Part shown: piece after piece, positions 3,488-31,410 of the stretch
Layout of the letters: each line of letters opens with the position of its first letter
Position numbering within the stretch: position 1 is the first letter of the stretch
Assembly: GCA_964579185.1 (NCBI GenBank)
Contig: CAZOFK010000001.1
Location: 1 to 42,502 of the forward strand
From: Candidatus Micrarchaeota archaeon
GTDB lineage: Archaea; Micrarchaeota; Micrarchaeia; Micrarchaeales; CABMGC01
Length of the DNA stretch: 42,502 nt
Direction of reading: 5' to 3'
The notes under the pieces: generated by a model
The model's database searches: none
Told to the model about the DNA's origin: nothing
The model's input: only the letters and a program-made list of their open reading frames with translations
Program-made: the position numbers and the translations under genes

Positions 3488-3547
3488 TACTACTATTTGT
3501 ATGTAGTGGTCGGGTGAAACCCAATATATAGTGTGTGTGGTGTTTAT

Positions 3548-5926
3548 ATGGCTGAAGATGGCAGCGGGATGGAAATTGTAGAAAGAGAGATAGAGACTGG
3601 AGCGAAGGCGGGGGTTTTAGATATTCCAAAGGCGACGCTTGATTTTTTCGAGGGGGATGAGATACGCGCTAGGGTCTTCTATGAAAAATATGCACTGAAA
3701 GACGCGAAGGGTAACATTGTCGAAGTAACCCCTTCGCAGATGTGGGAAAGGATAGCGAAGGAGATGGCAAGCGTGGAATCAACCGATGAAAAGAGAAGGC
3801 AGTGGACAGAGCGCTTCCTCTGGCTTCTTGGAGAATTCAGGTTCCTCCCAGGAGGCAGGATAATGTTCGGTGCGGGGCAGCCCAGAAAGGTTACGTTGCT
3901 GAACTGCTATGTCATACCCGTAAAAGATGATTCAATAGAGGGGATCTTCGAGTGGTGTAAGGAGGCTGCGCGAACATACAGCTACGGCGGCGGCGTTGGC
4001 ACAGACATAAGCGTGCTCAGACCGAAGGGTGCTAAGGTAAACAATTCAGCTGTCTATTCTACAGGCTCAATCTCATTCATGAATCTCTTCAGCGAAACAA
4101 CTCATACTATAGGGCAGCACGGGAGGCGCGGTGCGCTGATGATCACCATAGGCGTTGATCACCCTGATATTATGGAATTCATAAACATAAAGAAGGACAG
4201 GCATTCGGTTAGATATGCAAACATAAGCGTAAGGATAACTGATGAGTTCATGCGCGCAGTAGAGGCAGACAGCGATTTCACGCTTAGATACAGCAATGGC
4301 GTCGTAGGAACCATAGAGAAGAAGGTAAAAGCCAAAAAGGTATGGGATGCGCTGGTCGACTCCGCGAGGGACTGGGCAGAGCCTGGCATCATCTTTTGGG
4401 ACACAATGAAGAGATACTCCCCCAGCGAATACAACGGCATGGATATAATAGGCACCAACCCGTGCAGCGAGCAGCCTCTCCAGGCATACGGAGCTTGTGA
4501 TCTGGGCAATATAAACCTCTCTGCCTTTGTCGAAGACGCCTTCACGGATAAGGCACACATAGACTGGGAGGGTATGGAGAAGGCTGTAAGGTACTCAGTG
4601 CGCTTCCTTGACAACGTCCTTGATTATAACAGCGAGAAGCATCCTCTCAGGGAACAGAGCGAGGCTTCGGGAAAGAGCAGGAGGATAGGCGTAGGCGTGA
4701 CGGGCCTTGGTGACATGTTTGTAAAACTCAGGATAAAGTATGATAGCGAAGAGGCCATCGCCTTTGCAGATGCACTTTTTGATAGGATGAAAGAGACGGC
4801 TTATGATGAGAGCACTGAGATCGCAAAGGAGAAAGGCCCATTTCCGCTTTTCGAGAGGGAGAAGCACCTCTCGATGCAGTTCGTCAGGGAGCTAAACGCA
4901 GCGCTGCAGGAGAAGATAAAGGCAAACGGCCTTAGGAATGTCGCGATACTGACAATCCCTCCAGTAGGCAGCGGCTCTGTACTTGCAGGTACGTCAAGCG
5001 GCATAGAGCCCATCTTTGCATTCAGCTATACACGCCGCTCTGAGTCGCTTAGTCAGGAGTATTTCAAGGTTTATCATCCTCTCGTTCTTGAGTATGCAAA
5101 GGCAATGAAGATGGAGAGCGGAAATCCAGCATTGCCTGAATATTTCGTGCCTGCACACAAGATAAAGCCCGAATTCAGAGTAAAGATGCAGGGTACGATA
5201 CAGCGGCACATAGATAGCGCCATCTCGTCCACAGTCAATCTTGCACGGGAAGCGACAGCCGGAGACGTAGGCAAAATCTATATGCAGGCCTGGAAGGCAG
5301 GATGCAAAGGCATAACTGTTTATAGGGAAGGCTCGAGGGAGGGCATTCTTATAACTGAAGAGGAACAGAAAAAGCGGGAGGTAAGCGTAGCAGAGCTGGC
5401 TCTGAAGAGTTGGGAGAGGCCCCGCCTCATGGCAGGGCAGACAATCAAGCTTAATCTGCCTACAGGGGCGCTTTACGTAACTGCAAACTTCGATAATGGA
5501 ACTGCGAGGGAGGTCTTCGTGACGCTGGGAAAGACAGGCAGCGAGGAGAGAAGCTATTGCGACGCCATAGGCAGGCTCATAAGCAAGTATCTGCAGATTG
5601 GTGGGGACATAAAGGAGGCGATTACTACAATAAAGGGCATAAAGGCAAACTCGTCCATAGTCTGGGACCGCGGCGTCAAGCTTTACAGCATACCTGACGC
5701 TGTCGCCAAGGCCCTCGAGATCATGATAGGTGTTTCAAAGCCACTTGTCGCAGGAAGCCTCTCTGAGGGCCAGGGAAACACACCGCTTGTGCATGGGCAG
5801 CAGCTTCCTATAAGCGGTCCAGATGAAGGAGCAGCAGAGGTATGCATAAACTGCGGAGAACATGGAGTAATACATGAAAACGGCTGTTACACCTGCAGGC
5901 TATGCGGCTACACCAAATGCGAATAG
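3548..5926 (+). CDS. nrdJ: Class II (adenosylcobalamin-dependent) ribonucleotide reductase
   Basis: TNPCSEQPL active-site Cys loop. N-terminal FYEKYALKD...MWERIAKE block. No ATP-cone. C-terminal Cys-rich tail CINCGEHG...CYTCRLCGYTKCE. No intein-sized insertion. Start set to ATG 3548; the track used GTG 3533. Confidence 0.85.
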   Translation: MAEDGSGMEIVEREIETGAKAGVLDIPKATLDFFEGDEIRARVFYEKYALKDAKGNIVEVTPSQMWERIAKEMASVESTDEKRRQWTERFLWLLGEFRFLPGGRIMFGAGQPRKVTLLNCYVIPVKDDSIEGIFEWCKEAARTYSYGGGVGTDISVLRPKGAKVNNSAVYSTGSISFMNLFSETTHTIGQHGRRGALMITIGVDHPDIMEFINIKKDRHSVRYANISVRITDEFMRAVEADSDFTLRYSNGVVGTIEKKVKAKKVWDALVDSARDWAEPGIIFWDTMKRYSPSEYNGMDIIGTNPCSEQPLQAYGACDLGNINLSAFVEDAFTDKAHIDWEGMEKAVRYSVRFLDNVLDYNSEKHPLREQSEASGKSRRIGVGVTGLGDMFVKLRIKYDSEEAIAFADALFDRMKETAYDESTEIAKEKGPFPLFEREKHLSMQFVRELNAALQEKIKANGLRNVAILTIPPVGSGSVLAGTSSGIEPIFAFSYTRRSESLSQEYFKVYHPLVLEYAKAMKMESGNPALPEYFVPAHKIKPEFRVKMQGTIQRHIDSAISSTVNLAREATAGDVGKIYMQAWKAGCKGITVYREGSREGILITEEEQKKREVSVAELALKSWERPRLMAGQTIKLNLPTGALYVTANFDNGTAREVFVTLGKTGSEERSYCDAIGRLISKYLQIGGDIKEAITTIKGIKANSSIVWDRGVKLYSIPDAVAKALEIMIGVSKPLVAGSLSEGQGNTPLVHGQQLPISGPDEGAAEVCINCGEHGVIHENGCYTCRLCGYTKCE

Positions 5927-5973: not shown

Positions 5974-6726
5974 CTACTCGTAAAGCACAGCACGTCTTCC
6001 ATTTAGCTTTGCCAGCCTGATGTCTGCGCCGTAGAGGGAGGAAAGGAAAGCCCCTGTAAGGAGCGCTTTGCTTTTTCCTGCGGCGAAAAGGCTTCCGTTC
6101 TTTAGTGCCACAGTCCACCCGCTCCTGAATGCCAGATCAAAATCGTGAGTCGCTACAAGAAGAGAGATGCGCCTCTCAGGCAGCCTTGAGAGCATATCCA
6201 TGATCCTCCTCTTGTTTCCGAAATCAAGGTTCGAGGTTGGTTCATCTAGCAGCATTGTAGAAGCATCAGAGGCGAGGGCCCTTGCTATGAGTACTAGACG
6301 CTTCTCTCCGCTGCTCAGATCGCTCATCGTCTTGTCAGCAAGATGGTGTATCCCGACGAAGCGCATATTCTCTTCAGCCTTCTCCTCAGATATCCATCTG
6401 CCTTTGCTGCGGGCATTGGACATAACGTCCATAACCCCGAGAGCTAGACCCGATTCGAGTTCCGCCGGGGCGTATGAGAAGTATTCAGGTATCTCACTAA
6501 TCCTTACCTCCTGCAGCGCTCTACCGTCTATATACACGGCGCCCGCTGCAGGCTTTATGTATTTTATCAATGCCCTCAGCAGCGTAGTCTTTCCTGAGCC
6601 GTTAGGTCCCAATATAGTAGTTATGCCTGGCATGGGTATACGCACAGTAAGGCAGTCTATCACTGGGTCTTTCTCGTAGCCAACCCTCAGCCCTTCTATC
6701 CTAATTGAGCCTGCCAACATGACCAC
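5974..6726 (-). CDS. ABC transporter ATP-binding protein, FepC/FhuC/BtuD type
   Basis: Walker A GPNGSGKTT, signature LSSGEKRL, Walker B MLLDEPTSNLD, H-loop ATHD. Overlaps the upstream permease gene by about 20-26 nt, suggesting an operon. Confidence 0.9.
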   Translation of the reverse strand: MVMLAGSIRIEGLRVGYEKDPVIDCLTVRIPMPGITTILGPNGSGKTTLLRALIKYIKPAAGAVYIDGRALQEVRISEIPEYFSYAPAELESGLALGVMDVMSNARSKGRWISEEKAEENMRFVGIHHLADKTMSDLSSGEKRLVLIARALASDASTMLLDEPTSNLDFGNKRRIMDMLSRLPERRISLLVATHDFDLAFRSGWTVALKNGSLFAAGKSKALLTGAFLSSLYGADIRLAKLNGRRAVLYE

Positions 6727-7735
6727 CTCTTTTAAGCAGATATATGAGAAGAGGAGCCCCCACCAGGCTTGTTATAGCAGTTATAGGGACGACAGTGCCT
6801 GGTATTATGCTTTTTGAGACAAAGTTCGAAAGCGAGAGCATGGCTGCGCCGAGGAATGCGGAGAGGGGGAGAACTGCCTTATTGTCTGCGCTCCTCAACA
6901 GTAGTCTTATAAGGTGCGGCGTGACAAGCCCGACAAAGCCTATTATGCCTGTGAACGAGAGAGCTACAGAGGTAAGCACACCAGCAGAAGAGAGCATTAC
7001 GGCTCTGAAGCCCCGGGGGTCGACTCCGGCAGATATTGTTATCTCATCGCCCATCGCAATGAGATTTAGCTTCTTGTAGGACAGAAGCACGTATACAAGC
7101 ACGGGCACGCTTACGATGAGCATGATGAGGTCATCGTTCCATGAAATGCCACTGAGAGTGCCAAACAGGGCAAATATCAGTGAAAACGCGCCGGGGCTCT
7201 TTGAGAGGAGATAAGCCTCAATGAGCATTACAAATGCAGAGAAGAGTATGGAGACGGCTATCCCTGCCAGTGTCATTCTCAGCCATTCCCCCCTCCTGCT
7301 CAGGAGAAGCACAATGATTATAGAAAGCATAGCTCCGGCAAAACCCATGGCTGGCTGCAGTATAGCGCCGAGATGCAGCTGGAGGCTGAATCCCATCAGC
7401 GCGATGCCCAATAGTGAACCAAGCACGGCACCAGACGCTGTTCCTGTTATATACGGATCAGCAAGCGGATTCTTAAGCACACCCTGCATTACAGCCCCTG
7501 CTATTGCCAAATCTGCACCTACAAGGAGGGCGCCTATGGCCTCGGGGAGCCTTATGGCGTACAGTATGGTCTTGTATACCCCTGAAGGGGCAAGCAGTTC
7601 CCCTATCGGTATATATACGCTGCCGAACACAAGATCTGCTATGAACAGGACAAGCAAAAGAACAAGTGCCAATAAAGAAACGTACAGCACTCTCCTGCGC
7701 CTGCTGGCCATATGCACACACGATGAAGAATACAT
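6701..7735 (-). CDS. FecCD/BtuC-family ABC permease (iron-siderophore/haem/cobalamin importer type)
   Basis: RLPEAIGALLVGADLAIAGAVMQGVLKNPLADPYITGTASGAVLG is the hallmark N-terminal block of this family. About 9-10 hydrophobic helices. An alternative start is M9 (7711). Confidence 0.9.
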   Translation of the reverse strand: MYSSSCVHMASRRRRVLYVSLLALVLLLVLFIADLVFGSVYIPIGELLAPSGVYKTILYAIRLPEAIGALLVGADLAIAGAVMQGVLKNPLADPYITGTASGAVLGSLLGIALMGFSLQLHLGAILQPAMGFAGAMLSIIIVLLLSRRGEWLRMTLAGIAVSILFSAFVMLIEAYLLSKSPGAFSLIFALFGTLSGISWNDDLIMLIVSVPVLVYVLLSYKKLNLIAMGDEITISAGVDPRGFRAVMLSSAGVLTSVALSFTGIIGFVGLVTPHLIRLLLRSADNKAVLPLSAFLGAAMLSLSNFVSKSIIPGTVVPITAITSLVGAPLLIYLLKRGGHVGRLN

Positions 7736-7800
7736 TTCACAGAGGCACTAAAAAGGTATCTATGCATCTTCAATATCTTGCGCCAAGCCTTCATGAAGAA

Positions 7801-7810
7801 TATTTAAATA
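7801..7810. promoter_or_regulatory. Palindromic TATTTAAATA box in the divergent btuC-like / surface-protein intergenic region
   Basis: 151-nt divergent spacer. A second A/T box, CATATAGTATATT (7863-7875), lies about 20 nt before ATG 7887. Confidence 0.3.
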
Positions 7811-7886
7811 ACTATGCCTTTATTATACTACTGGTTGGGTTAGTTTTGAACTAACGATACAACATATAGTATATTGGGCGTGTATT

Positions 7887-10800
7887 ATGGCAATCGGATA
7901 TCTCAGAGAGAGAGGTGTGATGATCCTGTTCACAGCTGCCGCGGCTCTCTTCCTTTCAGGAAGCGCCGCTGCGATGGGCGTAATTCCGGGTGCAGCCTTT
8001 TCAAGCAATGGCATAATGATAGGAAACAGCGCTTCCTTGAATGTGCTTGTTTACGGGGGCATAGCGCCGTATAGATCTGCCTTATCGCTAATCTCTGATA
8101 CGAATGCGCTAAACTACAGCACAGGCATGCAAAACCTTACAGCATATGACTCCAATTCACTCAACTCTAATGCCATCCTTAGCATTGCAGTATATGCGAT
8201 CTCAGGGAATGTCATATCGCTTGAGGTCGACGGGATAAACCTCTCCGTAGCAGGCAATGCCATATACGGCGGCTGGACGCTCAACTGCGTCCTGGCCGAC
8301 AGCGCCTCGAACTCGCTTATGTTTAGCCTTCCCCTCACGATATATCCCCTGCTTAATGTCTCGGCTCCCGTACTTAATTCTAATGAGATAGCAGATGGGG
8401 GGGAACTTCTCGATGTGAAGGGCAGCGTGCGCGGAGGCAGCGGCGTGTATACGGCAGGCATTCTCGGCTCCTGGAATGATTCTGCATATATTGCAGCGAA
8501 CAGGAGCTGCGGGGTATACGGCAGCGTTGTAAACTGCTCCTTTATTGTTCCAGCTGAGCGTGCGCAGGGCCTTCTGCATATAAGATTTGAAATCACAGAC
8601 TCGCTTAACGACACACTTAATTCGACGCCAGTCACGCTCATGGTTTACCCTGAGCTTGAGCTGAGTACATCCCGGAATGTTATAAGACTTGACAGCGGCC
8701 AATCAATAGGCATACTCGCCAATGCCTCAGGAGGCACAGGGGATACAGCATATGCATGGAGCGTTCCGAACAGCCTAGCTATCGGCTCTGGCTGCGCAAC
8801 TGGCAGTGCGTGCAATGTCTCTGCAGAAACCCCGGGCACATACATCATAAAGGCAATGGCCATAGATAATGGCACCTCAGAGCCGCAGGCCAGCACAACT
8901 AAGAATATCAGCGTAGCTGTCATGGAACTTCCGCATCTTGCCATTCTACCTTCGATTGTGTATACGGACTATGGCGAAAACGCCATAATAAGCGCAGATG
9001 CCGGAGGTGGCACAGGCAGCTTCGCGTATCAGTGGTCTATGAACGGCATGCCTGTTGAAGGGGCAAAGAATAAAACACTGAGCGTAGGCGAGCCTCCTGG
9101 TGCATACAACATAACTCTGTCTGCCATAGATATCGGGACCACCGAAGGCGCATACCCGCTGCCTATGGCTTCAGCGTACGGGCTGATGCTCGTTCATCCT
9201 CGCCCATCCCTAAAGTCATCGCTTCCTCTGCTTATCAAGGCAGATAAAGGGCAGAAGTTGCAGTATAATGTAAGTGTACCTGCTGATTCAGGTGTAGGCC
9301 CATTCAGTATAGAGATAGTGTCCGATGGCAACACGTTATCATCGAATGATGTTTTAGGCGGCACCACCACTCTTTTGAACTACGTAGCAAACGAACTGGG
9401 AAACATGCCTCTGGAGATAATAGGCATTGACAAAGGCACAAGTGTGCCGTACGCCTTCGGCAGTATCAACAGCACGCTGCTTGTCAGGCCAGCGCCCGTT
9501 GTACAGATATCAAAAAACACGCTTATTCTTGATTCGGGTGAGAGAGGAGCATTCAGAGTAAGAGTAGAGAATGGCACAGGCCCATTCAGTATAGAGGTCA
9601 TTAACGCATCAGACGGCGCAAGCGTTGAGAATGTCACAGGGCTCTCATCCGGAAACGAGACAGATATAAACTTCACCGCCTCTCTTCCTGCAAACGCAAG
9701 CGCTTCAGAGACATATGGGTATGCACTGCTTGCAAAGGATACCGGTACAACGCTGCCGTTCGAATTCAACCCTATTCGGCTCACGCTTAAAGTGTATCCT
9801 GCTCTCAGCGTGCTTACCGACTACGATGCCGCTGCGTACACCATCAGCAACGCCTTCCCCATAGCCAACATAAACAGCAACCAGACATATACCTTCAACG
9901 TGCTCTCATACGTGGCCATAAGCGGCGGCACAGGCAATTATACATACAGCTGGGACACAAGCGGGCTCCCGAATAACTCATTCAGGGCGCTCTCATGTAA
10001 TACATACCTGTGCACGATTAAGGCTATAGGAAGCACCTTGAGCTCATCGGGCACGCTTCTGGCTAGCATAGCCGATACATCCGAAGGCAATCTCAGCTAC
10101 GCTAGCGAGTATTATTACGTCACAGACCCACTGCCACCGCACTACGAGGATTATCTTGATAGGGCACAGAATGTATACAACGCACCTGGCATAGGTATAA
10201 TAATACCCTCGGCGGGGCAGATTATTTATGCGCTTGGGTTAAGCAACGAGGTAGTAGCTATGAGCGGCATCTCTGACGCTGCGCTTAAGTCATTCGGAAT
10301 TGTGCCTTCTGCTATTGTGCAGAACATAGGCTCTCCGTGCTGTGCTCTCTCCGATTTTGCATCTAGGCTTATCTATGCCGGGGCCAATTATGTGCCGGTA
10401 GACGCAGGCGCATTTGAAGGAACACTGACTAGCGGCATCTCGATGCTTGAAGCAGGCAATATAGTGCCGGCAGTCTTGGGCGGTGATTTTGACTCTAATA
10501 TAACTGCTATTGAGAATGACGTTATGATTGTTGCCAATGAGACAGGCAGATACAGCGAAGGGGTCAGCGTGGCAGGGAAGATGGATAAAATACTTTCCGC
10601 AATAAAATCGCGCCTAGGTGGAAGCAAGAGTGAGAGTGTGGCGATGATAGCCGGCTGGTATCCGCCGATGTATATTGACGGCAGTGTCTCGTTCATAGGC
10701 TCCGAGATAGGTGCTGCCAATGGAAAGGATGTGTTTGGAGGCTTCTATCCCTCGCCTTCTCCGGAGGATCTCCTGTACAAGAACCCTGAGTATATCATTG

Positions 10801-11948
10801 CAGCCATATTCAGCTACCCTGCGAACATATCTGCGACATACGCAGCCCTTGAATCAATGCCTGGGATAACTGAGAGTAATGCATGGAAAGACGGGAAAGT
10901 TTATATTCTGGGTAATATGGCAACAAACCTCACGGATGAGCCCGGACCTCTCTCCGTTTATGGGGCCCTGCTATATGCGGCTATACTGCATCCTGAAGAG
11001 TTTGGGCTCTCTTATGCCACTCTGCCCCATAATATAACTTCGGGATGGGTAAGGAAGTATATTGCGCCAGACATAAGCCTTAGTATGCCTCCCCTGCTTG
11101 CTGAGAGCCGGAGCACTGCAACTACACAGCAGAATCTGAGCAATGGCAGCCCCGCTGCTCCGGGCTATGGACAGGCTGCAGGCGCAGGAAGCGTTCAGGC
11201 TACATGGAATGGCTTGTGTTACAGCATAACAAACATGAGCGATAATTCAAGCGCAACGCTGCTCTTCGGGAATATTGGAGTTCAGCTGTTTGTAAGCCAA
11301 ATAACCAGCAATGCGGCAGAGATGCGGGCATTAGGCAGCGTGTATGCGCTGGAAATAAACGCAAGCATAGGAATAGGCAGCGGGTATACTGCAAGGCTTC
11401 TCGGTGTAAACGGTGCTTCAGGAAGGCCTCTTGCCTCGCTTGATTTCTGCTCAGGTGCAAAAGCCGCATCTATAGCAAAGGCAGTTAGTGCCACAATAAA
11501 TGGGAGAGTACAAAGCAGCAATACCATGATCGGAAGCGTTCAGGGCATCGCTGCGCCTGAACTCAGCATAGCAAACAGCAGCGTCATTGCAGGTGGCAGC
11601 GATGAGATTACGGCCTATGCGCCGATGAATGAGACAGTTGCAATACTTGTTAACGGCACCTCACTCTCAACGGGAAACGGCACTGCAGTATTCAACGCGG
11701 GGCTTCTCGGCGAGGGTATGTACGGAATAAAGGCCTGTGCATACGCCCTGGGAAAAGAGGAATGCAGTGCTGTAAGAGGCGTAAGCGTGCGCGTTGCTGG
11801 GACAGCGGCGCCCAGCGCGGCGCCAAACGCAGAGACTAAAGCCGTACAGAACTCCCTGCTGCTCCCGGTCCTGGCAGGCACTGGTATAGTCATCGCAATA
11901 GGCTATCTCGTTGCAAATAATCCATGGCGCAGGAAGCGCCCGACTTGA
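7887..11948 (+). CDS. 1353-aa cell-surface protein: signal peptide, about 7 Ig-like modules, embedded class-III (BtuF/FhuD-type) substrate-binding domain, further extracellular region, C-terminal TM anchor
   Basis: Signal peptide MILFTAAAALFLSGSAAA. A recurring strand motif occurs at residues ~57, 183, 283, 374, 469, 563 and 681: GGIAPY, GGSGVY, GGTGDTAYAW, GGGTGSFAYQW, GVGPFSIEI, GTGPFSIEV, GGTGNYTYSW. Binding-protein blocks span residues ~768-1040. C-terminal LLLPVLAGTGIVIAIGYLVANNPW followed by RRKRPT. Confidence 0.75.
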   Translation: MAIGYLRERGVMILFTAAAALFLSGSAAAMGVIPGAAFSSNGIMIGNSASLNVLVYGGIAPYRSALSLISDTNALNYSTGMQNLTAYDSNSLNSNAILSIAVYAISGNVISLEVDGINLSVAGNAIYGGWTLNCVLADSASNSLMFSLPLTIYPLLNVSAPVLNSNEIADGGELLDVKGSVRGGSGVYTAGILGSWNDSAYIAANRSCGVYGSVVNCSFIVPAERAQGLLHIRFEITDSLNDTLNSTPVTLMVYPELELSTSRNVIRLDSGQSIGILANASGGTGDTAYAWSVPNSLAIGSGCATGSACNVSAETPGTYIIKAMAIDNGTSEPQASTTKNISVAVMELPHLAILPSIVYTDYGENAIISADAGGGTGSFAYQWSMNGMPVEGAKNKTLSVGEPPGAYNITLSAIDIGTTEGAYPLPMASAYGLMLVHPRPSLKSSLPLLIKADKGQKLQYNVSVPADSGVGPFSIEIVSDGNTLSSNDVLGGTTTLLNYVANELGNMPLEIIGIDKGTSVPYAFGSINSTLLVRPAPVVQISKNTLILDSGERGAFRVRVENGTGPFSIEVINASDGASVENVTGLSSGNETDINFTASLPANASASETYGYALLAKDTGTTLPFEFNPIRLTLKVYPALSVLTDYDAAAYTISNAFPIANINSNQTYTFNVLSYVAISGGTGNYTYSWDTSGLPNNSFRALSCNTYLCTIKAIGSTLSSSGTLLASIADTSEGNLSYASEYYYVTDPLPPHYEDYLDRAQNVYNAPGIGIIIPSAGQIIYALGLSNEVVAMSGISDAALKSFGIVPSAIVQNIGSPCCALSDFASRLIYAGANYVPVDAGAFEGTLTSGISMLEAGNIVPAVLGGDFDSNITAIENDVMIVANETGRYSEGVSVAGKMDKILSAIKSRLGGSKSESVAMIAGWYPPMYIDGSVSFIGSEIGAANGKDVFGGFYPSPSPEDLLYKNPEYIIAAIFSYPANISATYAALESMPGITESNAWKDGKVYILGNMATNLTDEPGPLSVYGALLYAAILHPEEFGLSYATLPHNITSGWVRKYIAPDISLSMPPLLAESRSTATTQQNLSNGSPAAPGYGQAAGAGSVQATWNGLCYSITNMSDNSSATLLFGNIGVQLFVSQITSNAAEMRALGSVYALEINASIGIGSGYTARLLGVNGASGRPLASLDFCSGAKAASIAKAVSATINGRVQSSNTMIGSVQGIAAPELSIANSSVIAGGSDEITAYAPMNETVAILVNGTSLSTGNGTAVFNAGLLGEGMYGIKACAYALGKEECSAVRGVSVRVAGTAAPSAAPNAETKAVQNSLLLPVLAGTGIVIAIGYLVANNPWRRKRPT
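10188..11006 (+). other. Embedded periplasmic-binding-protein type III domain (PF01497-like) within the 7887-11948 ORF
   Basis: The block order matches BtuF/FhuD-type proteins as I recall them. N-lobe start IGIIIPSAGQIIYALGLSNEVVAMSG. Inter-lobe helix region GVSVAGKMDKILSAIKSRLGG. C-lobe SVAMIAGWYPPMYIDGSVSFIGSEIGAANGKDVF, SPEDLLYKNPEYIIAA, WKDGKVYILG...EPGPLSVYGALLYAAILHPEEFG. Confidence 0.65.
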
Positions 11949-12008
11949 CAGAGGCAGAGCATGCTCGGTATATAAAAGGCAGTACTTCCTAATTACGCTG
12001 TGTTGAAA

Positions 12009-12551
12009 ATGGCTGCCATCTATTTTACGAGAACCGGCGATGACGGCTCAACCGGAGTATTCGGAGGTCGCGTGCGGAAAGACAGCACGCTCATTGACGT
12101 TATTGGAAACATAGACGAGCTTAACAGCAGCATAGGCATTGTACTCCAGCATATATCCGATAAGAGCCTACAGGACTGGCTTTACGAGGTTCAGAACGAC
12201 CTGTTCAAGATAGGAGCGTATATGGCTTTCCTACAAAACAAGCAGGGAAAGAAGGTTTGCGTGGACAAATCAGACATCGAGAAGCTTGAGGGGCATATAA
12301 AAAGCCTCTCTGAGGCGCTGCCTGAACAGCATCAGTTTGTCATACCCTCCGGCGCGCATGCTGCTCCTTTTCTGCATTTCGCCAGGGCTGTTGCAAGGAG
12401 GGCTGAGAGGAGCATGGTCTCGCTGACAAACGAGTATGATGTGGATAAGGATGCAATAGCATATGCGAACAGGCTCTCTTCGTTTTTATTTGTCGCGGCG
12501 CTATATGTAAACCACTCAGCAGGAAAGGAAGAGCGCCATCCCACTTACTGA
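12009..12551 (+). CDS. pduO: PduO-type ATP:cob(I)alamin adenosyltransferase
   Basis: N-terminal TRTGDDGST motif, about 180-aa helical protein, FVIPSG...FLHFARAVARRAER block. TATATAAAAG box at 11969-11978. The start is either ATG 12009 or GTG 12000 (leaderless). Confidence 0.85.
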   Translation: MAAIYFTRTGDDGSTGVFGGRVRKDSTLIDVIGNIDELNSSIGIVLQHISDKSLQDWLYEVQNDLFKIGAYMAFLQNKQGKKVCVDKSDIEKLEGHIKSLSEALPEQHQFVIPSGAHAAPFLHFARAVARRAERSMVSLTNEYDVDKDAIAYANRLSSFLFVAALYVNHSAGKEERHPTY

Positions 12552-12581: not shown

Positions 12582-13511
12582 ATGTACCTGTCATGCATGA
12601 GACTCAGTAAGGTATATGAAAAGGGCATTAGGGTGCTCGGCCCCCTTAGCCTTGACATCCCCATGCAAGGGGTCTTCGCCCTGATAGGCAGGAACGGCGC
12701 AGGAAAGACTACGCTTGTGCGCATGCTTGCAACTGAGTTGATGCCGACATCAGGCAGTGCCAAGATGAACGGAGTCGACCTAGTGGCTAACCCTGAGAGG
12801 ATAAGGGAAGAGATCGCCATTGTGCCTCAGGAAGCGAGATGTATACCTTGGATTACACCCATGCAGACGGTAATCTCATACCTGATGTTCAGAGGCTTAG
12901 GATACAGCGCAGCAAGGAGAAAAGCCGCAGAGGCTTTGAGGAAGCTGAAGGTTTATAGTTATAGGGATAAACCGACGCGGAACCTCTCCGGAGGCATAAA
13001 AAGGAAGGTGCTTGTAGCTATGGCGCTGGCTTCAGACGCACGTGTGCTCTTCCTTGATGAGCCGACGACAGGTCTTGATCCTATCTCAAGGAATGAACTC
13101 TGGAACGTCTTGATGGATCTCAAAAAGGAGCGCTTTATATTCCTGACAACGCATTATCTCGAAGAGGCGGAGCGCCTTGCTGATACTATAGGCATAATGG
13201 ATAGGGGCAAGTTGCTCGCAATAGGCTCCCTAGACGATCTCAGGAAAAGGGTAGGCTACCAGTACAGTATAAGGGTGCTTGAGAAGGGAATAAGACCTGG
13301 CATAAGGATAAAGAGAGGCATGACAATAAAGGGCATTGACGGGTTTGAGCAGATTCTTACTACAGAGATAGAGGCGCGCAGGATCTCGAAGTACTTCATA
13401 GAGCAAGGCATTAAGTTTTCTTCGAATCCAGTTTCTCTAGACGATATCTTTTATTACCTGGTAAAAAGGCCCATAGGTGACAAATATGACAACAATAGCG
13501 AAGAGGCTTAA
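12582..13511 (+). CDS. ABC-2-type (DrrA/CcmA-like) transporter ATP-binding protein
   Basis: Walker A GRNGAGKTT, signature LSGGIKRK, Walker B LFLDEPTTGLD. The likely true start is M6 (12597, MRLSKVYEKG). Confidence 0.85.
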   Translation: MYLSCMRLSKVYEKGIRVLGPLSLDIPMQGVFALIGRNGAGKTTLVRMLATELMPTSGSAKMNGVDLVANPERIREEIAIVPQEARCIPWITPMQTVISYLMFRGLGYSAARRKAAEALRKLKVYSYRDKPTRNLSGGIKRKVLVAMALASDARVLFLDEPTTGLDPISRNELWNVLMDLKKERFIFLTTHYLEEAERLADTIGIMDRGKLLAIGSLDDLRKRVGYQYSIRVLEKGIRPGIRIKRGMTIKGIDGFEQILTTEIEARRISKYFIEQGIKFSSNPVSLDDIFYYLVKRPIGDKYDNNSEEA

Positions 13512-14235
13512 CCAGTTTAACGCCTCAGTGCTTATAAATGCAGTGTACGCTATGCGAAGCTACCCGCTTATGCTTGTGAATACCTTCATATCACCGCTCT
13601 CTCTTCTTCTTGTGCTCACGTTCGTAAGTCACGGCTCCCTTATAGGCGTTGCCGTCGAAGGAGGGCTTATAACAAGTATGGTTTCGGCAGGAACGTCACT
13701 GCAGGCAGATCTCTCGCACCTCAAGAACGACTTCGAATTTCAGGATATAGTAGTCAGTTCGCCTACGAGTGCAGCTGTCTACATAACAGGCATGGCGCTT
13801 TCTGAACTTGTGTATTATCTGCCTTCGCTTTTTGTGTTTGGAATACTGGCTCTGCTTTTCATAAAGGCCACACTGGCTGCGGCAATATCAATACTGCTCG
13901 CTATGCTTCTCATGTTCATGTTCTCTATAGTGCTTGGATTTATGCTCTCGACTTTTTCTTCGGACATCATGGAAAACTGGTCCTTCTCTGTCATTCTATC
14001 CACGGTGCTTTCAACTGTACCTCCGGTCTATTATCCCATAACGTATATACCGTTGCCGTACAGGTACATAGCCTACCTCTCACCTACAACTTATGCGGCA
14101 GAGATAGTCCAGAATGCGGCAGGATATCTGCCCCTTGGCACAGTGTATATCAGGGTGGCGTGGCTTGTGCTGGGAGGCACTACACTGCTTCTCTTGGCAG
14201 TAGCCCTGAAAAAGACAAGGTGGAGAGAACCTTAG
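13477..14235 (+). CDS. ABC-2 family transporter permease
   Basis: About 6 hydrophobic helices. Overlaps the preceding ATPase gene by about 26-35 nt, the typical ABC-2 exporter pair arrangement. Confidence 0.7.
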   Translation: MTNMTTIAKRLNQFNASVLINAVYAMRSYPLMLVNTFISPLSLLLVLTFVSHGSLIGVAVEGGLITSMVSAGTSLQADLSHLKNDFEFQDIVVSSPTSAAVYITGMALSELVYYLPSLFVFGILALLFIKATLAAAISILLAMLLMFMFSIVLGFMLSTFSSDIMENWSFSVILSTVLSTVPPVYYPITYIPLPYRYIAYLSPTTYAAEIVQNAAGYLPLGTVYIRVAWLVLGGTTLLLLAVALKKTRWREP

Positions 14236-15557
14236 GCCTCTTTTTCAACCGGTTCCTGCTTCTTAGGATCTGCAGTGATCTCTATGACAGACTCTTTGTT
14301 TTTGATCTCGTTTTCCTGAGGCTGTTTCTTATTTGCAGAGAGCTCATCGGCCTCGACGCCCTTCCTTATCCTGCTTACCTCGCGCACTGAGTTTATTCTG
14401 GCACGCGCATAAAGTGCGAGGAGTATTGTGGCTATTGCGCCTGCCAGATATTCAAAATACGAAGAACCTGCAAAGGCGCCTAATGAGCCAAGCGCAGAGG
14501 GCAGATGTATGCCTATGCTGTTAAGCTTAAGGCTATCCTTTCTTTTGCACTGTGCTATGGCGTTCCCTACTGCGGCTGACAAGTCCATTGAATAATTCAG
14601 GTATTCTGCCGAACCCGGGAGAGTCACAGGATTCGTGTAATTGAGCGCAGAGGCCAGGCTTTCGTTTAATGCTGTACTGTTCTGCGTGCAGTTTCTAAGG
14701 AGAGCGTAGTTTGAGGTATAGTTTGACTTCGCTGCAACGATCATCTCATAGGCCCTTATGTTGTTGTTTATTATAATGTTTGAATCGGTAATGAAAGCTG
14801 AGATTGAGGACTGGTACGGCAGCACGCTCATGTTTGCCAGAGATGCGTTGTAGTAAGCGCACTCCAGATTAGAGCTCTCTGCGCAGAGCGTCGCGTTGTG
14901 CAGGTACGCAGATGCGTTTATTAGCACGATGCCTATGCTGCTGTTGCATATGCCATAGGTGCCGCAGATGTACATATAGGTATCGGCCTCTGGCACAAGC
15001 GCCGAAAATGTAGAGTTGTATATGCGCAGCACCTTGTTTTCGTATGCTGTAAGATGGTGGTAAATTGTGAGGTTTATACTGTAATTGTAGCGTATTTCGG
15101 GATACGGGATTGAAGAGAGCCTTAACCCTACCGAGGCGTTCAGGCTTCCATTGCCTTCTAATATGCCTATGGGCTTCAGCCTTACGGAGCACCATGAGGG
15201 CTCGCTTCCGGCTATGCACCTCAGCCCCGAAAGGTCGAGTGGTTCGCTAATATTGGCGCTATCTGCCTGCGATACGGTGAAGTTGCCATAGTATGCAGGG
15301 TAGCCTGACGCTATGGGAAATGAAACGCCTATGCCTGATGCGTCTGCGCACGAGATGGCTGTTGCATTAACCTGCATGCAGCTCTCTGAGATAGGCATTA
15401 TAAGCTTAGGCACCGAGGCTCTCTGAGGCTGTACCAGCGCAAGGAAAACGAGTATGGCGAGCATAAATATTGTTTTTGAGCTTCTGCGGAGCTCGATGTA
15501 CTCATAGTCTGATTGAATATGTATGCCTGTATACCCTCTTTCCATTCTTAAGACCAT
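14232..15557 (-). CDS. Surface-exposed, sequon-rich, Cys-paired glycoprotein with a C-terminal TM anchor and charged tail; function unknown
   Basis: N-terminal hydrophobic segment IFMLAILVFLALV. I count 19 N-x-S/T sequons. Paired cysteines. C-terminal helix YLAGAIATILLALYA followed by a K/E-rich tail. The start is uncertain: M1 overlaps the upstream gene by 56 nt. Confidence 0.55.
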   Translation of the reverse strand: MVLRMERGYTGIHIQSDYEYIELRRSSKTIFMLAILVFLALVQPQRASVPKLIMPISESCMQVNATAISCADASGIGVSFPIASGYPAYYGNFTVSQADSANISEPLDLSGLRCIAGSEPSWCSVRLKPIGILEGNGSLNASVGLRLSSIPYPEIRYNYSINLTIYHHLTAYENKVLRIYNSTFSALVPEADTYMYICGTYGICNSSIGIVLINASAYLHNATLCAESSNLECAYYNASLANMSVLPYQSSISAFITDSNIIINNNIRAYEMIVAAKSNYTSNYALLRNCTQNSTALNESLASALNYTNPVTLPGSAEYLNYSMDLSAAVGNAIAQCKRKDSLKLNSIGIHLPSALGSLGAFAGSSYFEYLAGAIATILLALYARARINSVREVSRIRKGVEADELSANKKQPQENEIKNKESVIEITADPKKQEPVEKEA

Positions 15558-16143
15558 ATAAGGTGTAGGAAGCCATCGCTACAATGCGCCCCCGGGCTAT
15601 GAACGCAGCTGCAAGCCCTTTATCGCTTACATACAGGTCGCGCCCGTTATCGTTCTCTTCGGTCCTGGCTATAAATGCACCATGACGCTCAAGATAGGCA
15701 TTGAGCTTGATGCTGAGCTTCTCCACGCGTTCGGGGTTGCCCCTTAGCTGCATCACCGCCTCGTAATACGAGCCTGCCTTCTTCCTACATTTATCGCATA
15801 ATACTTTGGTATAGCTCATATTTATCCTTTTCTCAGCTATAGCCTTATGGCCTGCCGCGTTCATAAGTTCGAGGGTGACGCACGTCCTATCTATATCTAG
15901 AATCCTGAACGCACAGCCCTTTAAGGAGAGGCTTATGGCCTTTTGCATAGCCTCGGGCGTAGGCTTGAAATAAGCTCCGGCTATGCGTATCCTGTCGCAT
16001 GCTTTGCAGCGCGCTATTGTTGCCTCTGAAGGCACCTTATCCGAGATCCGTTTCCCTGCGCATGGGGCACAGAACTCACCGATAAACTCTACCTCGCTGC
16101 TTGAGGCATTGCATATGGGGCAGTGCTTAGGCACCCTCACCAC
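15502..16143 (-). CDS. NMD3-family (N-terminal Zn-binding domain) protein, ribosome biogenesis-related
   Basis: Serial CxxC pairs (CPIC, CAPC, CKAC, CDKC) and the YYEAVMQLRG block characteristic of the NMD3 N-terminal domain. GTG start; overlaps the secD 3' end. Confidence 0.55.
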   Translation of the reverse strand: MVRVPKHCPICNASSSEVEFIGEFCAPCAGKRISDKVPSEATIARCKACDRIRIAGAYFKPTPEAMQKAISLSLKGCAFRILDIDRTCVTLELMNAAGHKAIAEKRINMSYTKVLCDKCRKKAGSYYEAVMQLRGNPERVEKLSIKLNAYLERHGAFIARTEENDNGRDLYVSDKGLAAAFIARGRIVAMASYTLYGLKNGKRVYRHTYSIRL

Positions 16144-17713: not shown

Positions 17714-18864
17714 CAACGCCTCTCTTTTCGCTTCTTGTAAAGGAGCACTATAGTGGCGTTTCCAAGCCACGTGGTAAGTATATCACCGAGGAGGCCGAAT
17801 AGCACCACCCCGGATATCTCATAGTATGTAGGTATATATGCAAGTATTGAAACTATGAAGAGTACGCCGAAGGAGACAAGCGCTGTCGTAGTCATAGTAA
17901 GGCCTGTCTTCATCGAGGAATATGCTCGTTCCTCAGGGGTGCCCTCATGCCTCTTCAGTATCCTTATGGCAGTGAGCACGTCGGTGTCTATTGAGTATCC
18001 TATAAGCATGAGAAGGCCGCCTATGCTTGCTATGCCTAAAGGTATTCCGAGTACGCCCATGGCACCCAAGGCTATGACCATATCGTTTGCTGCCCCGAAT
18101 ACCACGGCAAAGGCGGGAGCTACCGACCTGAATATGGCAAAGACCACTATTATTATAAGTACAAATGCCACGAATATGACATATCTGAGCTGTCCTAGGA
18201 AGTATCTGCCCAGCGTGGGCGTCAGCTGCTGATACGAATAACTTGAATAGGGTATCACCTCGCCTATAACGCCGAGTACCTTCTGCCTGTACACGAGGCT
18301 TGCGTTAGTGTATGAGTCCTGAGCGAGCCCTGTCATTGCGCTTGTACTGTTCGCTGTTGATCCTGCACTGCCTATAAAAGGACTCAGCGCCAAAAGCTCT
18401 TCGCCGAGTGTCTCACGCATGCCGGCAAGAGAGCTGTTGAGAATGGCTGTGGAGTTGCCGAGCTCCGCTTCGAGCGTCTTATTGCCGGGAGCCTTCTCAA
18501 GAGCCAAAGAGAAGGCAGTGGCATTCACCTGCGCGCCTGAATACGTTGCCTTGTATGCGTAAAAGCTAAGAAGTAAGGATTCGGCCTTCGAGAGGCTTTC
18601 GTTGGTTATTAGTGTTATTTGCAGGCCTCCGGGGCTTCTTTGTATGTTAGGCTGCGGTATATGCAGCTTAGAGGCAATGGCAGTGGCAAGCTGCGATGTG
18701 CTCATTGTGGAATTTGTCTGCAGTATTATGCTTACGCCGCCGCTAAGCGAGGAGTCCAGTATTATCTTTGTGGAGAAGTATATGCCTATAAGCATAAGCA
18801 GCACAGGCACTACTATGAAATATTTAAGATGCTTGCTCGTGTAGATATTTGGTATGCTAACCAT
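17713..18864 (-). CDS. secF: Protein-export membrane protein SecF
   Basis: TM1, extracytoplasmic loop, C-terminal TM bundle with GYSIDTDVLTAIRILKR. Lies immediately upstream of secD; secF-secD is the archaeal order as I recall it. Confidence 0.75.
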   Translation of the reverse strand: MVSIPNIYTSKHLKYFIVVPVLLMLIGIYFSTKIILDSSLSGGVSIILQTNSTMSTSQLATAIASKLHIPQPNIQRSPGGLQITLITNESLSKAESLLLSFYAYKATYSGAQVNATAFSLALEKAPGNKTLEAELGNSTAILNSSLAGMRETLGEELLALSPFIGSAGSTANSTSAMTGLAQDSYTNASLVYRQKVLGVIGEVIPYSSYSYQQLTPTLGRYFLGQLRYVIFVAFVLIIIVVFAIFRSVAPAFAVVFGAANDMVIALGAMGVLGIPLGIASIGGLLMLIGYSIDTDVLTAIRILKRHEGTPEERAYSSMKTGLTMTTTALVSFGVLFIVSILAYIPTYYEISGVVLFGLLGDILTTWLGNATIVLLYKKRKERR

Positions 18865-31394: not shown

Positions 31395-31410
31395 CAGACC
31401 GCCTGCTGAG

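What the first reader, a model, noticed from the sequence alone, without database searches (positions are those of the whole stretch)
7887..11948. Giant surface protein with a BtuF-type substrate-binding domain between an Ig-like module array and a membrane anchor
Seen in sequence: one uninterrupted 1353-codon ORF with four parts. (1) A signal peptide. (2) About 740 aa in which a G-G-x-G/P-x-[YF]-x-[YI]-x-W-like strand motif recurs about every 90-125 residues (positions ~57, 183, 283, 374, 469, 563, 681). That spacing is what an array of about seven Ig/PKD-like beta-sandwich modules would give. (3) About 270 aa (nt 10188-11006) whose conserved blocks follow the order of class-III binding proteins (BtuF/FhuD/haem-binding type). 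(4) About 280 further residues, one TM helix and an RRKR stop-transfer tail. The gene is divergently paired with a FecCD/BtuC permease and FepC/BtuD ATPase that otherwise lack a binding protein. Established knowledge: ABC importer binding proteins are normally stand-alone proteins of roughly 250-450 aa, tethered by a lipid or a single helix. Inference: the binding domain is displayed as part of a long, glycosylated, S-layer-spanning or adhesin-like stalk. It could capture a scarce cofactor at a distance from the membrane, or at a cell-cell contact if the organism is an episymbiont. I do not know of this architecture being described.
Basis: partly seen in the sequence, partly recalled or inferred. 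Interest (0 to 1): 0.75.

Follow-up and report, generated by a model that had tools for sequence, protein, structure and literature searches.

The report
Giant anchored binding protein, Micrarchaeota importer
A tiny symbiotic archaeon (Micrarchaeota) builds the nutrient-catching subunit of a vitamin-B12-type ABC importer into a 1353-residue, sugar-coated, membrane-anchored surface protein with seven Ig-like modules; this is a conserved but undescribed lineage-specific variant of a well-known transporter part.

Summary
Nt 7887-11948 is one 1353-codon ORF. It has a signal peptide, seven Ig-like modules, a class-III (PF01497, BtuF/FhuD-type) binding domain at about aa 767-1063, an unplaced ~255-aa extension, one C-terminal helix and an RRKR tail. 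It is divergent from BtuC-like permease and BtuD-like ATPase genes.

It is not an assembly artefact. Seven independent Candidatus Micrarchaeota MAG loci encode 780-1224-aa proteins with the same domain order, each next to btuC and btuD.

- A PduO-type cobalamin adenosyltransferase lies directly downstream, and an adenosylcobalamin-dependent class II ribonucleotide reductase lies upstream. This linkage recurs in relatives, so a corrinoid is the likeliest cargo. That is inferred from context only; fold and sequence do not separate B12, haem and siderophore.
- The anchor is C-terminal. The Ig array therefore projects beyond the binding domain rather than forming the stalk beneath it.

The conserved core is the last Ig module plus the binding domain (~50% identity). 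Both flanks evolve fast.

Extended class-III binding proteins exist elsewhere (tandem, coiled-coil), and Bacteroides BtuH2 is a non-homologous analogue. I found no paper describing this family.

Verdict: a new variant of a known kind, of moderate interest.

The parts
3533..5926 (+). Class II (adenosylcobalamin-dependent) ribonucleotide reductase NrdJ; the likely consumer of the imported cofactor
   Evidence: TIGR02504 NrdJ_Z scores 563 bits against a cut-off of 400. Pfam finds PF02867, PF00317 and TSCPD. It is syntenic upstream of btuD in L002 and L004 at 70% identity.
5974..6726 (-). ABC ATPase of the importer (BtuD/FepC-like)
   Evidence: PF00005 at 4.8e-25. The best NCBIfam hits are haem, F420-0, FecE and corrinoid ATPases, all below their cut-offs. 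It is adjacent to the permease in 8 of 8 loci.
6701..7735 (-). FecCD-family type II importer permease (BtuC-like)
   Evidence: PF01032 at 2.6e-71, full length. The best NCBIfam hit is BtuC NF003001 at 188 bits, below its cut-off of 334. The IRLPE motif keeps the equivalent of BtuC Arg56 (read from the translation). It is conserved next to the Ig-binding-protein gene in every locus at 52-59% identity.
7736..7886 (.). AT-rich divergent intergenic region with TATA-like elements; probably the promoters for both transcription units
   Evidence: Sequence read (TTTAAATA near 7803, ATATAGTATAT near 7866). Promoter function is inferred, not tested.
7887..7976 (+). Signal peptide, aa 1-30 (an alternative start at Met12 is possible)
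   Evidence: Hydrophobic stretch aa 10-33 followed by an Ala-Ala-Ala/Met-Gly site. All relatives start with a comparable hydrophobic N-terminus.
7977..9797 (+). Variable array of six Ig-like modules (aa 31-637), heavily sequon-decorated
   Evidence: Module alignment and pairwise blastp, with M3/M4 and M5/M6 at E about 2e-9. The module profile matches the Ig-like domain 5lxk at E = 8e-6. Full-length search hits carry SprB, PKD and Ig_3 Pfam domains. The SprB Pfam hit is below threshold, 16.8 against 28 bits. Identity to relatives is only 15-27%, and relatives have fewer modules.
9798..10184 (+). Conserved seventh Ig-like module (aa 638-745: GGTGNYTYSW, a Cys pair, DTSxG) plus the conserved linker YYYVTDPLPP..DYLDR (aa 746-766)
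   Evidence: Present directly before the binding domain in all family members, with invariant G-G-T-G, W, two Cys and D-T-S-x-G. Identity is 33-52%.
10185..11075 (+). Class-III (cluster A, PF01497) substrate-binding domain, aa ~767-1063
   Evidence: PF01497 scores 34.8 bits against GA 27.5. phmmer to 4hn9 gives 6.5e-4. hhalign to E. coli BtuF gives 99.6%. AF2 gives pLDDT 84.5 and pTM 0.86, and above 90 in the second model. Foldseek top hits are 4hn9, ShuT, IsdE, HtsA, BtuF and CeuE, with E down to 5e-14. Identity within the family is 48-54%.
11076..11840 (+). Lineage-specific C-terminal extension or tether (aa ~1064-1318): low-complexity S/T/A/P/G/Q linkers and two beta-rich segments
   Evidence: No Pfam hit, no PDB sequence hit and no similarity to relatives beyond the first ~18 residues. 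Identity is 16-23%. AF2 predicts strands only, at pLDDT below 50. It carries 10 sequons.
11841..11948 (+). C-terminal transmembrane helix (aa 1319-1344), the basic tail NNPWRRKRPT and the stop codon
   Evidence: Hydropathy peak of 2.31 at aa 1324-1342. Every complete relative ends with a hydrophobic helix plus an Arg/Lys-rich tail.
12000..12551 (+). PduO-type ATP:cob(I)alamin adenosyltransferase (likely true start ATG 12009)
   Evidence: TIGR00636 scores 178 bits against a cut-off of 108, and PF01923 gives 9e-49. It is immediately downstream of the Ig-binding-protein gene in L002, L004 and L007, and in L007 it overlaps that gene's stop by 8 nt.

Best explanation
The ORF encodes the cognate, membrane-tethered substrate-binding subunit of the adjacent BtuCD-type (type II) ABC importer of a Micrarchaeota archaeon.

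**Proposed biogenesis and action (inferred)**
- After Sec export and signal-peptide cleavage, the protein stays attached by its single C-terminal helix, with the basic tail in the cytoplasm.
- The class-III binding domain hangs on a flexible, glycosylated extension of about 255 aa. It binds its ligand and swings back to dock on the BtuC-like permease dimer, and ATP hydrolysis by the BtuD-like subunits drives import.
- The cargo is most probably a corrinoid. PduO would then adenosylate it to coenzyme B12 for the neighbouring class II ribonucleotide reductase.

**The Ig-like modules**
- The seven N-terminal modules are distal to the binding domain.
- The innermost module is conserved with the domain and probably forms a structural unit with it.
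- The outer six are a fast-evolving, N-glycosylated array of variable number that extends into or through the S-layer space. Their role (spacer, shield, S-layer or host contact) is unknown.

**Shown:** the ORF, the domain identities, the class-III fold, the conserved gene linkage and the family distribution.

**Inferred:** cleavage, glycosylation, docking, the ligand and the geometry.
For: - The binding domain is a bona fide class-III binding protein.
- It is the only binding protein next to a complete FecCD permease and ABC ATPase pair.
- The same pairing occurs in 7 of 7 related Micrarchaeota loci.
- The closest stand-alone relatives, from Sulfolobales, Caldivirga and Marsarchaeota, sit in ordinary binding protein-FecCD-ATPase operons.
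- The binding domain is the best conserved part of the protein, 48-54% identity against 15-27% for the flanks, as expected if it carries the selected function.
- The Glu equivalent to BtuF Glu202 is present, and the permease keeps the Arg56 equivalent.
- Corrinoid context: PduO clears its equivalog cut-off and lies immediately downstream in the window, L002, L004 and L007, with an 8-nt overlap in L007. NrdJ clears its cut-off and lies upstream in the window, L002 and L004.
- A C-terminal helix anchor behind a glycosylated linker is an established archaeal anchoring mode for binding proteins (PMC3387779).
- Micrarchaeota have an S-layer and express N-glycosylation genes (bioRxiv 10.1101/2021.04.28.441871).
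- Sequons are enriched about 2.6-fold over shuffles.
Against: - Nothing in the sequence or fold identifies the ligand. Foldseek ranks unnamed iron-type and haem binders above BtuF. No BtuF equivalog model is hit. BtuF's corrin-stacking Trp66 aligns to Ala.
- The N-lobe docking Glu72 aligns to Ser, although a conserved Asp/Glu sits three residues upstream. The Glu202 position varies within the family (E, G or S).
- PduO is absent within 10 kb in 4 of 8 loci and NrdJ in 5 of 8.
- The stand-alone relatives have no B12 context.
- No B12 riboswitch was found, although none is expected in archaea.
- Docking of a domain flanked on both sides by large segments has not been demonstrated.
- The flank folds are not confidently predicted.
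Confidence: 0.6

Rival explanations
1. The architecture and transport role are the same, but the cargo is haem, a ferric siderophore or another metal chelate rather than a corrinoid. The adjacency of PduO and NrdJ would then be coincidental or reflect only loose co-regulation.
For: - The top structural neighbours are iron-type, haem and siderophore binding proteins (4hn9, ShuT 2r7a, IsdE 2q8p, HtsA), ranked ahead of BtuF.
- The best NCBIfam hit for the ATPase is a haem ABC ATPase.
- Databases name the relatives 'iron complex transport system substrate-binding protein'.
- BtuF Trp66 is not conserved.
- Half of the related loci lack PduO nearby.
Against: - PduO is immediately downstream in four loci that span family members only 34-47% identical overall, and it overlaps the stop codon in L007.
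- NrdJ, whose cofactor is adenosylcobalamin (the product PduO makes), flanks the importer in three loci.
- The permease's best equivalog is BtuC.
- The database names are generic family labels, not tested functions.
Confidence: 0.25
2. The protein is a host-contact cofactor-harvesting device. The distal Ig-like array crosses the S-layer and binds the wall-less Thermoplasmatales host, which positions the binding domain to take corrinoid directly at the cell-cell contact. This adds to the best explanation rather than replacing it.
For: - The family is restricted to Micrarchaeota among everything found.
- The outer array is long (six or seven modules), fast-evolving and variable in number, as is typical of interaction surfaces.
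- Micrarchaeota have an S-layer and depend on a host.
- Bacteroides uses Ig-stalked B12 binders for competitive capture (PMC13616437).
Against: - There is no evidence of any binding partner.
- Fast evolution and heavy glycosylation also fit a passive spacer or shield.
- Relatives with only one to three modules (780-1019 aa) keep the same gene linkage, so a long reach is not essential.
- The binding domain lies proximal to the array, so the array cannot hand ligand to it in any obvious way.
Confidence: 0.12
3. The binding domain has been recruited for a non-transport role, such as an adhesin, an S-layer anchor or a sensor, and BtuCD uses another binding protein encoded elsewhere.
For: - Binding-protein homologues that serve chemotaxis rather than uptake are known in archaea (PMC3387779).
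- The docking glutamates are not strictly conserved.
Against: - Adjacency to btuC and btuD holds in 8 of 8 loci, with no other PF01497 gene in the flanks.
- Sequence conservation is highest in the binding domain.
Confidence: 0.04
4. The ORF is an assembly chimera or frameshift artefact that joins an ordinary binding protein to unrelated surface proteins.
For: None was found. The window protein is a singleton at full length in the word-indexed search.
Against: - The same order (signal, Ig modules, binding domain, extension, helix) occurs in seven independent MAG loci from different assemblies and in P0076-P0079.
- The junction module and linker are conserved residue by residue.
Confidence: 0.01

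Closest known systems
E. coli BtuF with BtuCD (type II ABC importer for vitamin B12; PDB 1n2z, 2qi9, 4fi3)
   Same: - The binding domain has the class-III two-lobe fold (hhalign 99.6%; Foldseek hits 1n2z and 5ysc).
- It is partnered with a FecCD-family permease whose best equivalog is BtuC, and with an ABC ATPase.
- The Glu202 equivalent and the permease Arg56 equivalent are present.
   Different: - BtuF is a free periplasmic protein of about 245 aa. Here the domain is embedded at aa 767-1063 of a 1353-aa C-terminally anchored glycoprotein.
- Identity is about 17%.
- Trp66 and Glu72 are not conserved at the aligned positions.
- No BtuF equivalog model is matched.
- Corrinoid specificity is inferred only from the PduO and NrdJ neighbours.
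Stand-alone PF01497 binding proteins of Sulfolobales, Caldivirga and Marsarchaeota (e.g. Stygiolobus caldivivus P0007, Caldivirga P0061)
   Same: - They are the closest relatives of the binding domain outside Micrarchaeota (25-37% identity over about 89% of the domain), with shared motifs such as DGKVYI...DEPGPLSVYG.
- They are encoded next to FecCD and ATPase genes.
   Different: - They are 290-390 aa, have an N-terminal hydrophobic anchor or signal only, and lack Ig-like modules, a C-terminal extension and a C-terminal helix.
- They have no PduO or NrdJ neighbours.
Bacteroides thetaiotaomicron BtuH2 (BT1956), a surface B12-binding lipoprotein with three PKD/Ig-like domains
   Same: It combines an array of Ig-like modules with a corrinoid-binding domain on the cell surface of a B12 auxotroph (PMC13616437). 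It is a functional analogy if the cargo here is a corrinoid.
   Different: - It is not homologous. The BtuH binding domain has a novel fold, not class III.
- The anchor is an N-terminal lipid, so there the Ig domains form the stalk between membrane and binder. Here the anchor is C-terminal and the Ig array lies beyond the binder.
- BtuH feeds an outer-membrane TonB system, not an ABC permease directly.
Archaeal C-terminally anchored binding proteins (oligopeptide-binding class of S. solfataricus and Aeropyrum pernix)
   Same: [quoted passage not shown]
   Different: - Those are class-II-type (cluster C) oligopeptide binders for type I importers.
- They lack an Ig array and lack a ~255-aa structured extension.
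Other extended class-III binding proteins found here (tandem P0083/P0084/P0089; coiled-coil-stalked P0118/P0145/P0148; alpha-toroid fusion P0218)
   Same: In each, PF01497 is embedded in a longer polypeptide. This shows that the stand-alone rule has exceptions.
   Different: None has Ig-like modules or the order Ig, binding domain, extension, helix. Their identity to the window domain is only 22-28%.

Membership tests
Class-III / cluster A substrate-binding proteins (Pfam PF01497 Peripla_BP_2) | Sequence match to the family profile above the curated threshold | tested here: met
   34.8 bits against a gathering score of 27.5, aa 869-1010. Relatives P0076-P0079 score 40-52 bits. hhalign to BtuF gives 99.6%.
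Class-III / cluster A substrate-binding proteins (Pfam PF01497 Peripla_BP_2) | Two alpha/beta lobes joined by a single long helix, with structural neighbours of that class | tested here: met
   The AF2 model (pLDDT 84.5, pTM 0.86) alternates strands and helices and has a 22-residue helix at model residues 153-174. All 50 best PDB matches are class-III binding proteins, with E from 5e-14 to 4e-10 and TM 0.57-0.68.
Class-III / cluster A substrate-binding proteins (Pfam PF01497 Peripla_BP_2) | One acidic residue on each lobe that docks onto permease arginines (BtuF Glu72 and Glu202 to BtuC Arg56; established knowledge of BtuCD-F) | tested here: inconclusive
   Glu202 aligns to the Glu in 'SPEDLL', but this position is G or S in some relatives. 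Glu72 aligns to Ser, with a family-conserved Asp/Glu three residues upstream. The permease has IRLPE, which keeps the Arg56 equivalent.
Class-III / cluster A substrate-binding proteins (Pfam PF01497 Peripla_BP_2) | Encoded with a FecCD-family permease and an ABC ATPase | tested here: met
   The window and 7 of 7 related loci.
BtuF proper (corrinoid-specific binding protein) | Match to a BtuF equivalog model | tested here: not met
   The NCBIfam scan at E <= 0.1 returned only TIGR04281 (20 bits against a cut-off of 325) and IsdE (16 bits). No BtuF model was hit.
BtuF proper (corrinoid-specific binding protein) | Corrin-contacting aromatic residue (E. coli BtuF Trp66) | tested here: not met
   Trp66 aligns to Ala in the window domain. 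This residue is not universal among distant corrinoid binders (own knowledge), so it is weak evidence.
BtuF proper (corrinoid-specific binding protein) | Genomic association with cobalamin-processing or cobalamin-using genes | tested here: met
   PduO is adjacent in 4 of 8 loci and NrdJ in 3 of 8.
BtuF proper (corrinoid-specific binding protein) | Binds a corrinoid | not testable with these tools
   This requires UV-vis or ITC with the recombinant domain.
Ig-like beta-sandwich repeats (SprB / PKD / bacterial Ig-like type) | Match to a curated repeat profile above threshold | tested here: not met
   PF13573 SprB scores 16.8 bits against 28, and only at aa 676-692.
Ig-like beta-sandwich repeats (SprB / PKD / bacterial Ig-like type) | Repeated ~90-120-aa units with profile similarity to solved Ig-like domains | tested here: met
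   Seven units are delimited. The six-module profile matches 5lxk and 8zvi (phage T5 decoration protein Ig-like domain) at E = 8e-6 and 2e-5, and matches intimin and Hoc weakly. Homologues of this region carry PF13573, PF13927, PF00801 and PF18911.
Ig-like beta-sandwich repeats (SprB / PKD / bacterial Ig-like type) | All-beta sandwich fold in a confident model | tested here: inconclusive
   Only module 7 was modelled. The model shows strands only, but at pLDDT 30-50.
Archaeal C-terminally helix-anchored binding proteins | N-terminal Sec signal plus a single C-terminal transmembrane segment preceded by a glycosylatable linker | tested here: met
   The hydropathy segments are aa 10-33 and 1319-1344. 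An Ala/Pro/Ser-rich stretch precedes the helix, and relatives have Ser/Thr-rich stretches there. The mode is described in PMC3387779. Cleavage and glycosylation themselves are not testable here.

The most novel reading that the evidence does not exclude
The family is a symbiosis-specific cofactor-piracy device. The fast-evolving distal Ig array penetrates the Micrarchaeota S-layer and binds the wall-less Thermoplasmatales host. The tethered BtuF-like domain then takes corrinoid directly at the cell-cell contact and shuttles it to BtuCD. This would make ribonucleotide reduction, and therefore DNA synthesis, of the episymbiont depend on physical attachment to a B12-supplying host.
Probability: 0.1. 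Interest if true: 0.85.

Novelty: new variant of a known kind. Interest (0 to 1): 0.5.

Why it matters
DPANN archaea have reduced genomes and depend on hosts, yet very little is known about how they acquire cofactors.

This locus puts three things together: an importer, the enzyme that activates B12, and the B12-dependent enzyme that makes DNA precursors. The importer's capture subunit is built into a large glycosylated surface protein that is conserved across Micrarchaeota. This gives a concrete, testable handle on cofactor dependence in an episymbiont.

It is also a natural example of a class-III binding domain working while flanked on both sides by large extracellular segments. That bears on how tethered binding domains reach type II importers.

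If the distal Ig array proves to contact the host or the S-layer, the protein would link nutrient uptake to cell-cell attachment. If it is only a glycan-bearing spacer, the finding is a lineage-specific elaboration of an ordinary transporter.

Tried and rejected
- **Full-length word-indexed search:** only self plus Ig-region hits, so it looked like a singleton. The binding domain alone gave a single hit. Only the exhaustive HMMER search revealed the family.
- **First genome-contig scan:** the single protein found nothing. The alignment-based scan succeeded.
- **Structure prediction with locus translations:** The permitted alignment was too shallow outside the binding domain, so Ig module 7 and the C-terminal extension stayed below pLDDT 50 and were not used for fold search.
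- **C-terminal extension:** no Pfam hit, no PDB sequence hit, and no similarity to the N-terminal modules or to the relatives' extensions.
- **Ligand discrimination:** Foldseek ranking, NCBIfam equivalogs and BtuF contact residues all failed to discriminate.
- **Neighbourhoods of stand-alone relatives:** no informative genes.
- **RNA elements:** the Rfam and tRNA scans of the window were empty, so there is no B12 riboswitch.
- **Literature:** searches on Micrarchaeota with cobalamin, BtuF or Ig-like terms found no description of this protein family.
- **Chimera or frameshift hypothesis:** rejected because the domain order recurs in independent assemblies.

Full report

Yes. Nt 7887-11948 on the + strand is one uninterrupted ORF of 1353 codons. 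Hydropathy shows only two strong hydrophobic segments of membrane-spanning length. One is aa 10-33, at the N-terminus and followed by Ala-Ala-Ala/Met-Gly. The other is aa 1319-1344, followed by NNPWRRKRPT.

Cutting at the recurring L-x-V-x-P linkers gives seven modules of 92-122 aa. Modules 3/4 and 5/6 are significantly similar to each other (blastp E about 2e-9).

A profile of six modules matches the solved Ig-like domain of the phage T5 decoration protein (5lxk, E = 8e-6) through the same GGTGPYTY-W strand. It also matches intimin and Hoc weakly. Proteins that match this region in the large database carry SprB, PKD and Ig_3 Pfam domains. Pfam itself gives only a sub-threshold SprB hit.

N-x-S/T sequons number 41 against 15.7 +/- 3.6 in shuffles. 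They are concentrated in the Ig array and the C-terminal extension.

**2. The binding domain**

- PF01497 (Peripla_BP_2) is matched above its gathering score, 34.8 against 27.5 bits.
- A profile of the domain and its relatives aligns with E. coli BtuF at 99.6% probability over 235 columns. I first checked my recalled BtuF sequence against PDB 1n2z, and it was identical.
- AlphaFold2 with a 52-sequence alignment gives pLDDT 84.5 and pTM 0.86, with alternating strands and helices and a 22-residue helix between the two halves.
- The 50 best PDB neighbours are all class-III binding proteins, with E from 5e-14 to 4e-10. They include 4hn9, ShuT, IsdE, HtsA, CeuE, FecB, RhuT/BhuT and BtuF.
- The domain runs from about aa 767 to 1063. 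Its last ~18 residues (LPHNITSGWVRKYIAP) are still conserved in relatives.

**3. The protein is one of a family, and the organism is a Micrarchaeon**

The word-indexed searches made the protein look like a singleton. The closest relatives of the domain appeared to be stand-alone ~320-aa binding proteins of Sulfolobales, Caldivirga and Marsarchaeota at 25-37% identity.

The exhaustive HMMER search changed this. Four representatives at ~50% identity carry the domain inside long proteins: 759, 979 and 1005 aa, plus one truncated. They have the same preceding Ig-like module, and two of them end in a helix with a basic tail.

A pattern scan of one genome per species then returned seven loci. All are from Candidatus Micrarchaeota MAGs of different assemblies. 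One further fragment came from a metagenome.

Every complete protein (780-1224 aa) has the same order: signal, Ig-like module(s), binding domain, extension, C-terminal helix, Arg/Lys tail. Each has 3.6-4.3 sequons per 100 aa. The window protein is the longest member. The window also encodes NMD3, ribosomal proteins S3Ae and S15/S13 and other archaeal genes. This disposes of the chimera or frameshift alternative.

**4. What is conserved**

| Region | Identity to relatives |
|---|---|
| Binding domain | 48-54% |
| Seventh Ig module | 33-52% |
| Short linker after module 7 (YY[YF][VI]T..P.P...D[YW]L.R) | 29-50% |
| Outer six Ig modules | 15-27% |
| C-terminal extension | 16-23% |

Relatives have only about one to four Ig-like modules. 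The selected core is therefore 'one Ig module + class-III domain'. The outer array and the tether are fast-evolving and of variable length, as is usual for exposed surface segments.

The C-terminal extension could not be placed in any family. The second AF2 model predicts only strands there, at low confidence.

**5. Gene context**

- The divergent neighbours are a full-length FecCD permease (PF01032, 2.6e-71; best equivalog BtuC, below cut-off) and an ABC ATPase.
- In all seven related loci the Ig-binding-protein gene is next to the same two genes. They are divergent in six loci and co-directional in L001.
It is a PduO-type ATP:cob(I)alamin adenosyltransferase, with TIGR00636 at 178 bits against a cut-off of 108.
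It is an adenosylcobalamin-dependent class II ribonucleotide reductase, with TIGR02504 at 563 bits against a cut-off of 400.
- PduO follows the Ig-binding-protein gene in L002, L004 and L007. L007 is the most divergent member (34% identity), and there the pduO start overlaps the upstream stop by 8 nt.
- NrdJ and a downstream ABC-2 exporter pair are syntenic in L002 and L004.
- In L001, L003, L005 and L006 the flanks are unrelated housekeeping genes.
- The stand-alone crenarchaeal relatives sit in plain binding protein-permease-ATPase operons without B12 genes.

**6. Mechanism**

*Shown:* a class-III binding domain, a cognate-looking type II importer, a conserved family and the context.

*Inferred:*
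- The protein is exported, and the signal is probably cleaved.
- It remains anchored by the C-terminal helix with the basic tail inside. This anchoring mode is described for archaeal oligopeptide-binding proteins (PMC3387779).
- The extracellular part is N-glycosylated. Micrarchaeota have an S-layer and express an N-glycosylation system (bioRxiv 10.1101/2021.04.28.441871).
- The binding domain is tethered by the ~255-aa extension and must return to the membrane plane to dock on the permease.
- The docking chemistry is only partly recognisable. The BtuF Glu202 position is Glu here but varies in relatives. The Glu72 position is Ser, with a conserved acid one helical turn earlier. The permease keeps the Arg56 equivalent.

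Because the anchor is C-terminal, the Ig array is distal to the binding domain. By established dimensions of Ig-like domains (about 3.5-4 nm each), seven modules could span 25 nm or so. That is enough to cross an archaeal pseudo-periplasm and S-layer, but this is arithmetic, not evidence.

**7. Cargo**

A corrinoid is the best-supported guess, at about 0.6. Uptake, adenosylation by PduO and use by NrdJ form a complete supply line encoded side by side, and the PduO linkage recurs across divergent members.

The guess rests on context alone:
- Foldseek ranks iron-type and haem binders above BtuF.
- No BtuF equivalog is hit.
- BtuF Trp66 aligns to Ala.
- Half of the loci lack PduO nearby.

Haem or a ferric chelate remains a serious rival, at about 0.25.

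**8. Comparison with the known**

The domain is a member of the class-III/PF01497 family: profile, fold and operon tests are met, and the docking residues are inconclusive. It is not demonstrably a member of BtuF proper.

Stand-alone size is the rule for such proteins but not a law. The same exhaustive search found other extended forms:
- tandem two- and three-domain proteins
- forms with a ~180-aa coiled-coil N-terminal stalk
- an alpha-toroid fusion

The nearest functional analogue is Bacteroides BtuH2. [quoted passage not shown]

I found no paper that describes the Micrarchaeota family. A comparative DPANN study mentions cobalamin genes only generically (PMC8407392).

**9. Verdict**

This is a new, lineage-specific variant of a known kind of protein. 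It is conserved in Micrarchaeota and has a plausible role in corrinoid scavenging for DNA-precursor synthesis in a host-dependent archaeon. Interest is moderate (0.5). It would rise sharply if the distal array were shown to contact the host or the S-layer.

Noticed in passing
window 14232-15557 (-): A 441-aa ORF with no Pfam hit, carrying 19 N-x-S/T sequons against 5.1 +/- 2.0 in shuffles. It also has a Lys/Glu-rich C-terminal tail behind a hydrophobic segment. It is probably another membrane-anchored surface glycoprotein.
   Followed up: partly
window 12582-14235 (+): An ABC-2 type exporter pair (ATPase plus permease) lies directly after pduO. The same pair is syntenic in L002 and L004 at 57-58% identity. 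It is unclear whether it belongs functionally to the B12 cluster.
   Followed up: partly
L007 8197-8204: The pduO start codon overlaps the stop of the Ig-binding-protein gene by 8 nt (AAAAATGGCTAA), which indicates one operon. In the window, L002 and L004 there is a 50-60 nt gap containing a TATA-like element.
   Followed up: yes
L003 and L006 (both from MAG DAHXMW01, different contigs): One MAG carries two copies of the whole btuD-btuC / Ig-binding-protein locus. The L006 protein has the same length and nearly the same termini as the L005 protein from another MAG. This suggests either a strain mixture in the bin or a real duplication.
   Followed up: no
database proteins P0083, P0084, P0089, P0097, P0100: These are single polypeptides with two or three tandem PF01497 binding domains, 627-966 aa long. 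They are multi-domain class-III binding proteins of a different kind from the one studied.
   Followed up: partly
database proteins P0118, P0145, P0148 and P0218: These are class-III binding domains preceded by a ~180-aa coiled-coil-like segment (P0118, P0145, P0148), or by a prenyltransferase/terpene-cyclase-like alpha-toroid domain (P0218). Their origin and context are unknown.
   Followed up: no
window 31940-36557 (+) and 41480-42334 (-): A complete 2-oxoacid dehydrogenase complex operon (E1 alpha, E1 beta, E2, E3) and a proline dehydrogenase sit in what appears to be a DPANN genome. There are also a bacterial-type topoisomerase IA (29136-31466) and SecD/SecF (16127-18864).
   Followed up: no
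window 7887-7922: A second in-frame ATG at codon 12 (nt 7920) would give a shorter signal peptide, MILFTAAAALFLSGSAAA, without the charged n-region. The true start is undetermined.
   Followed up: no
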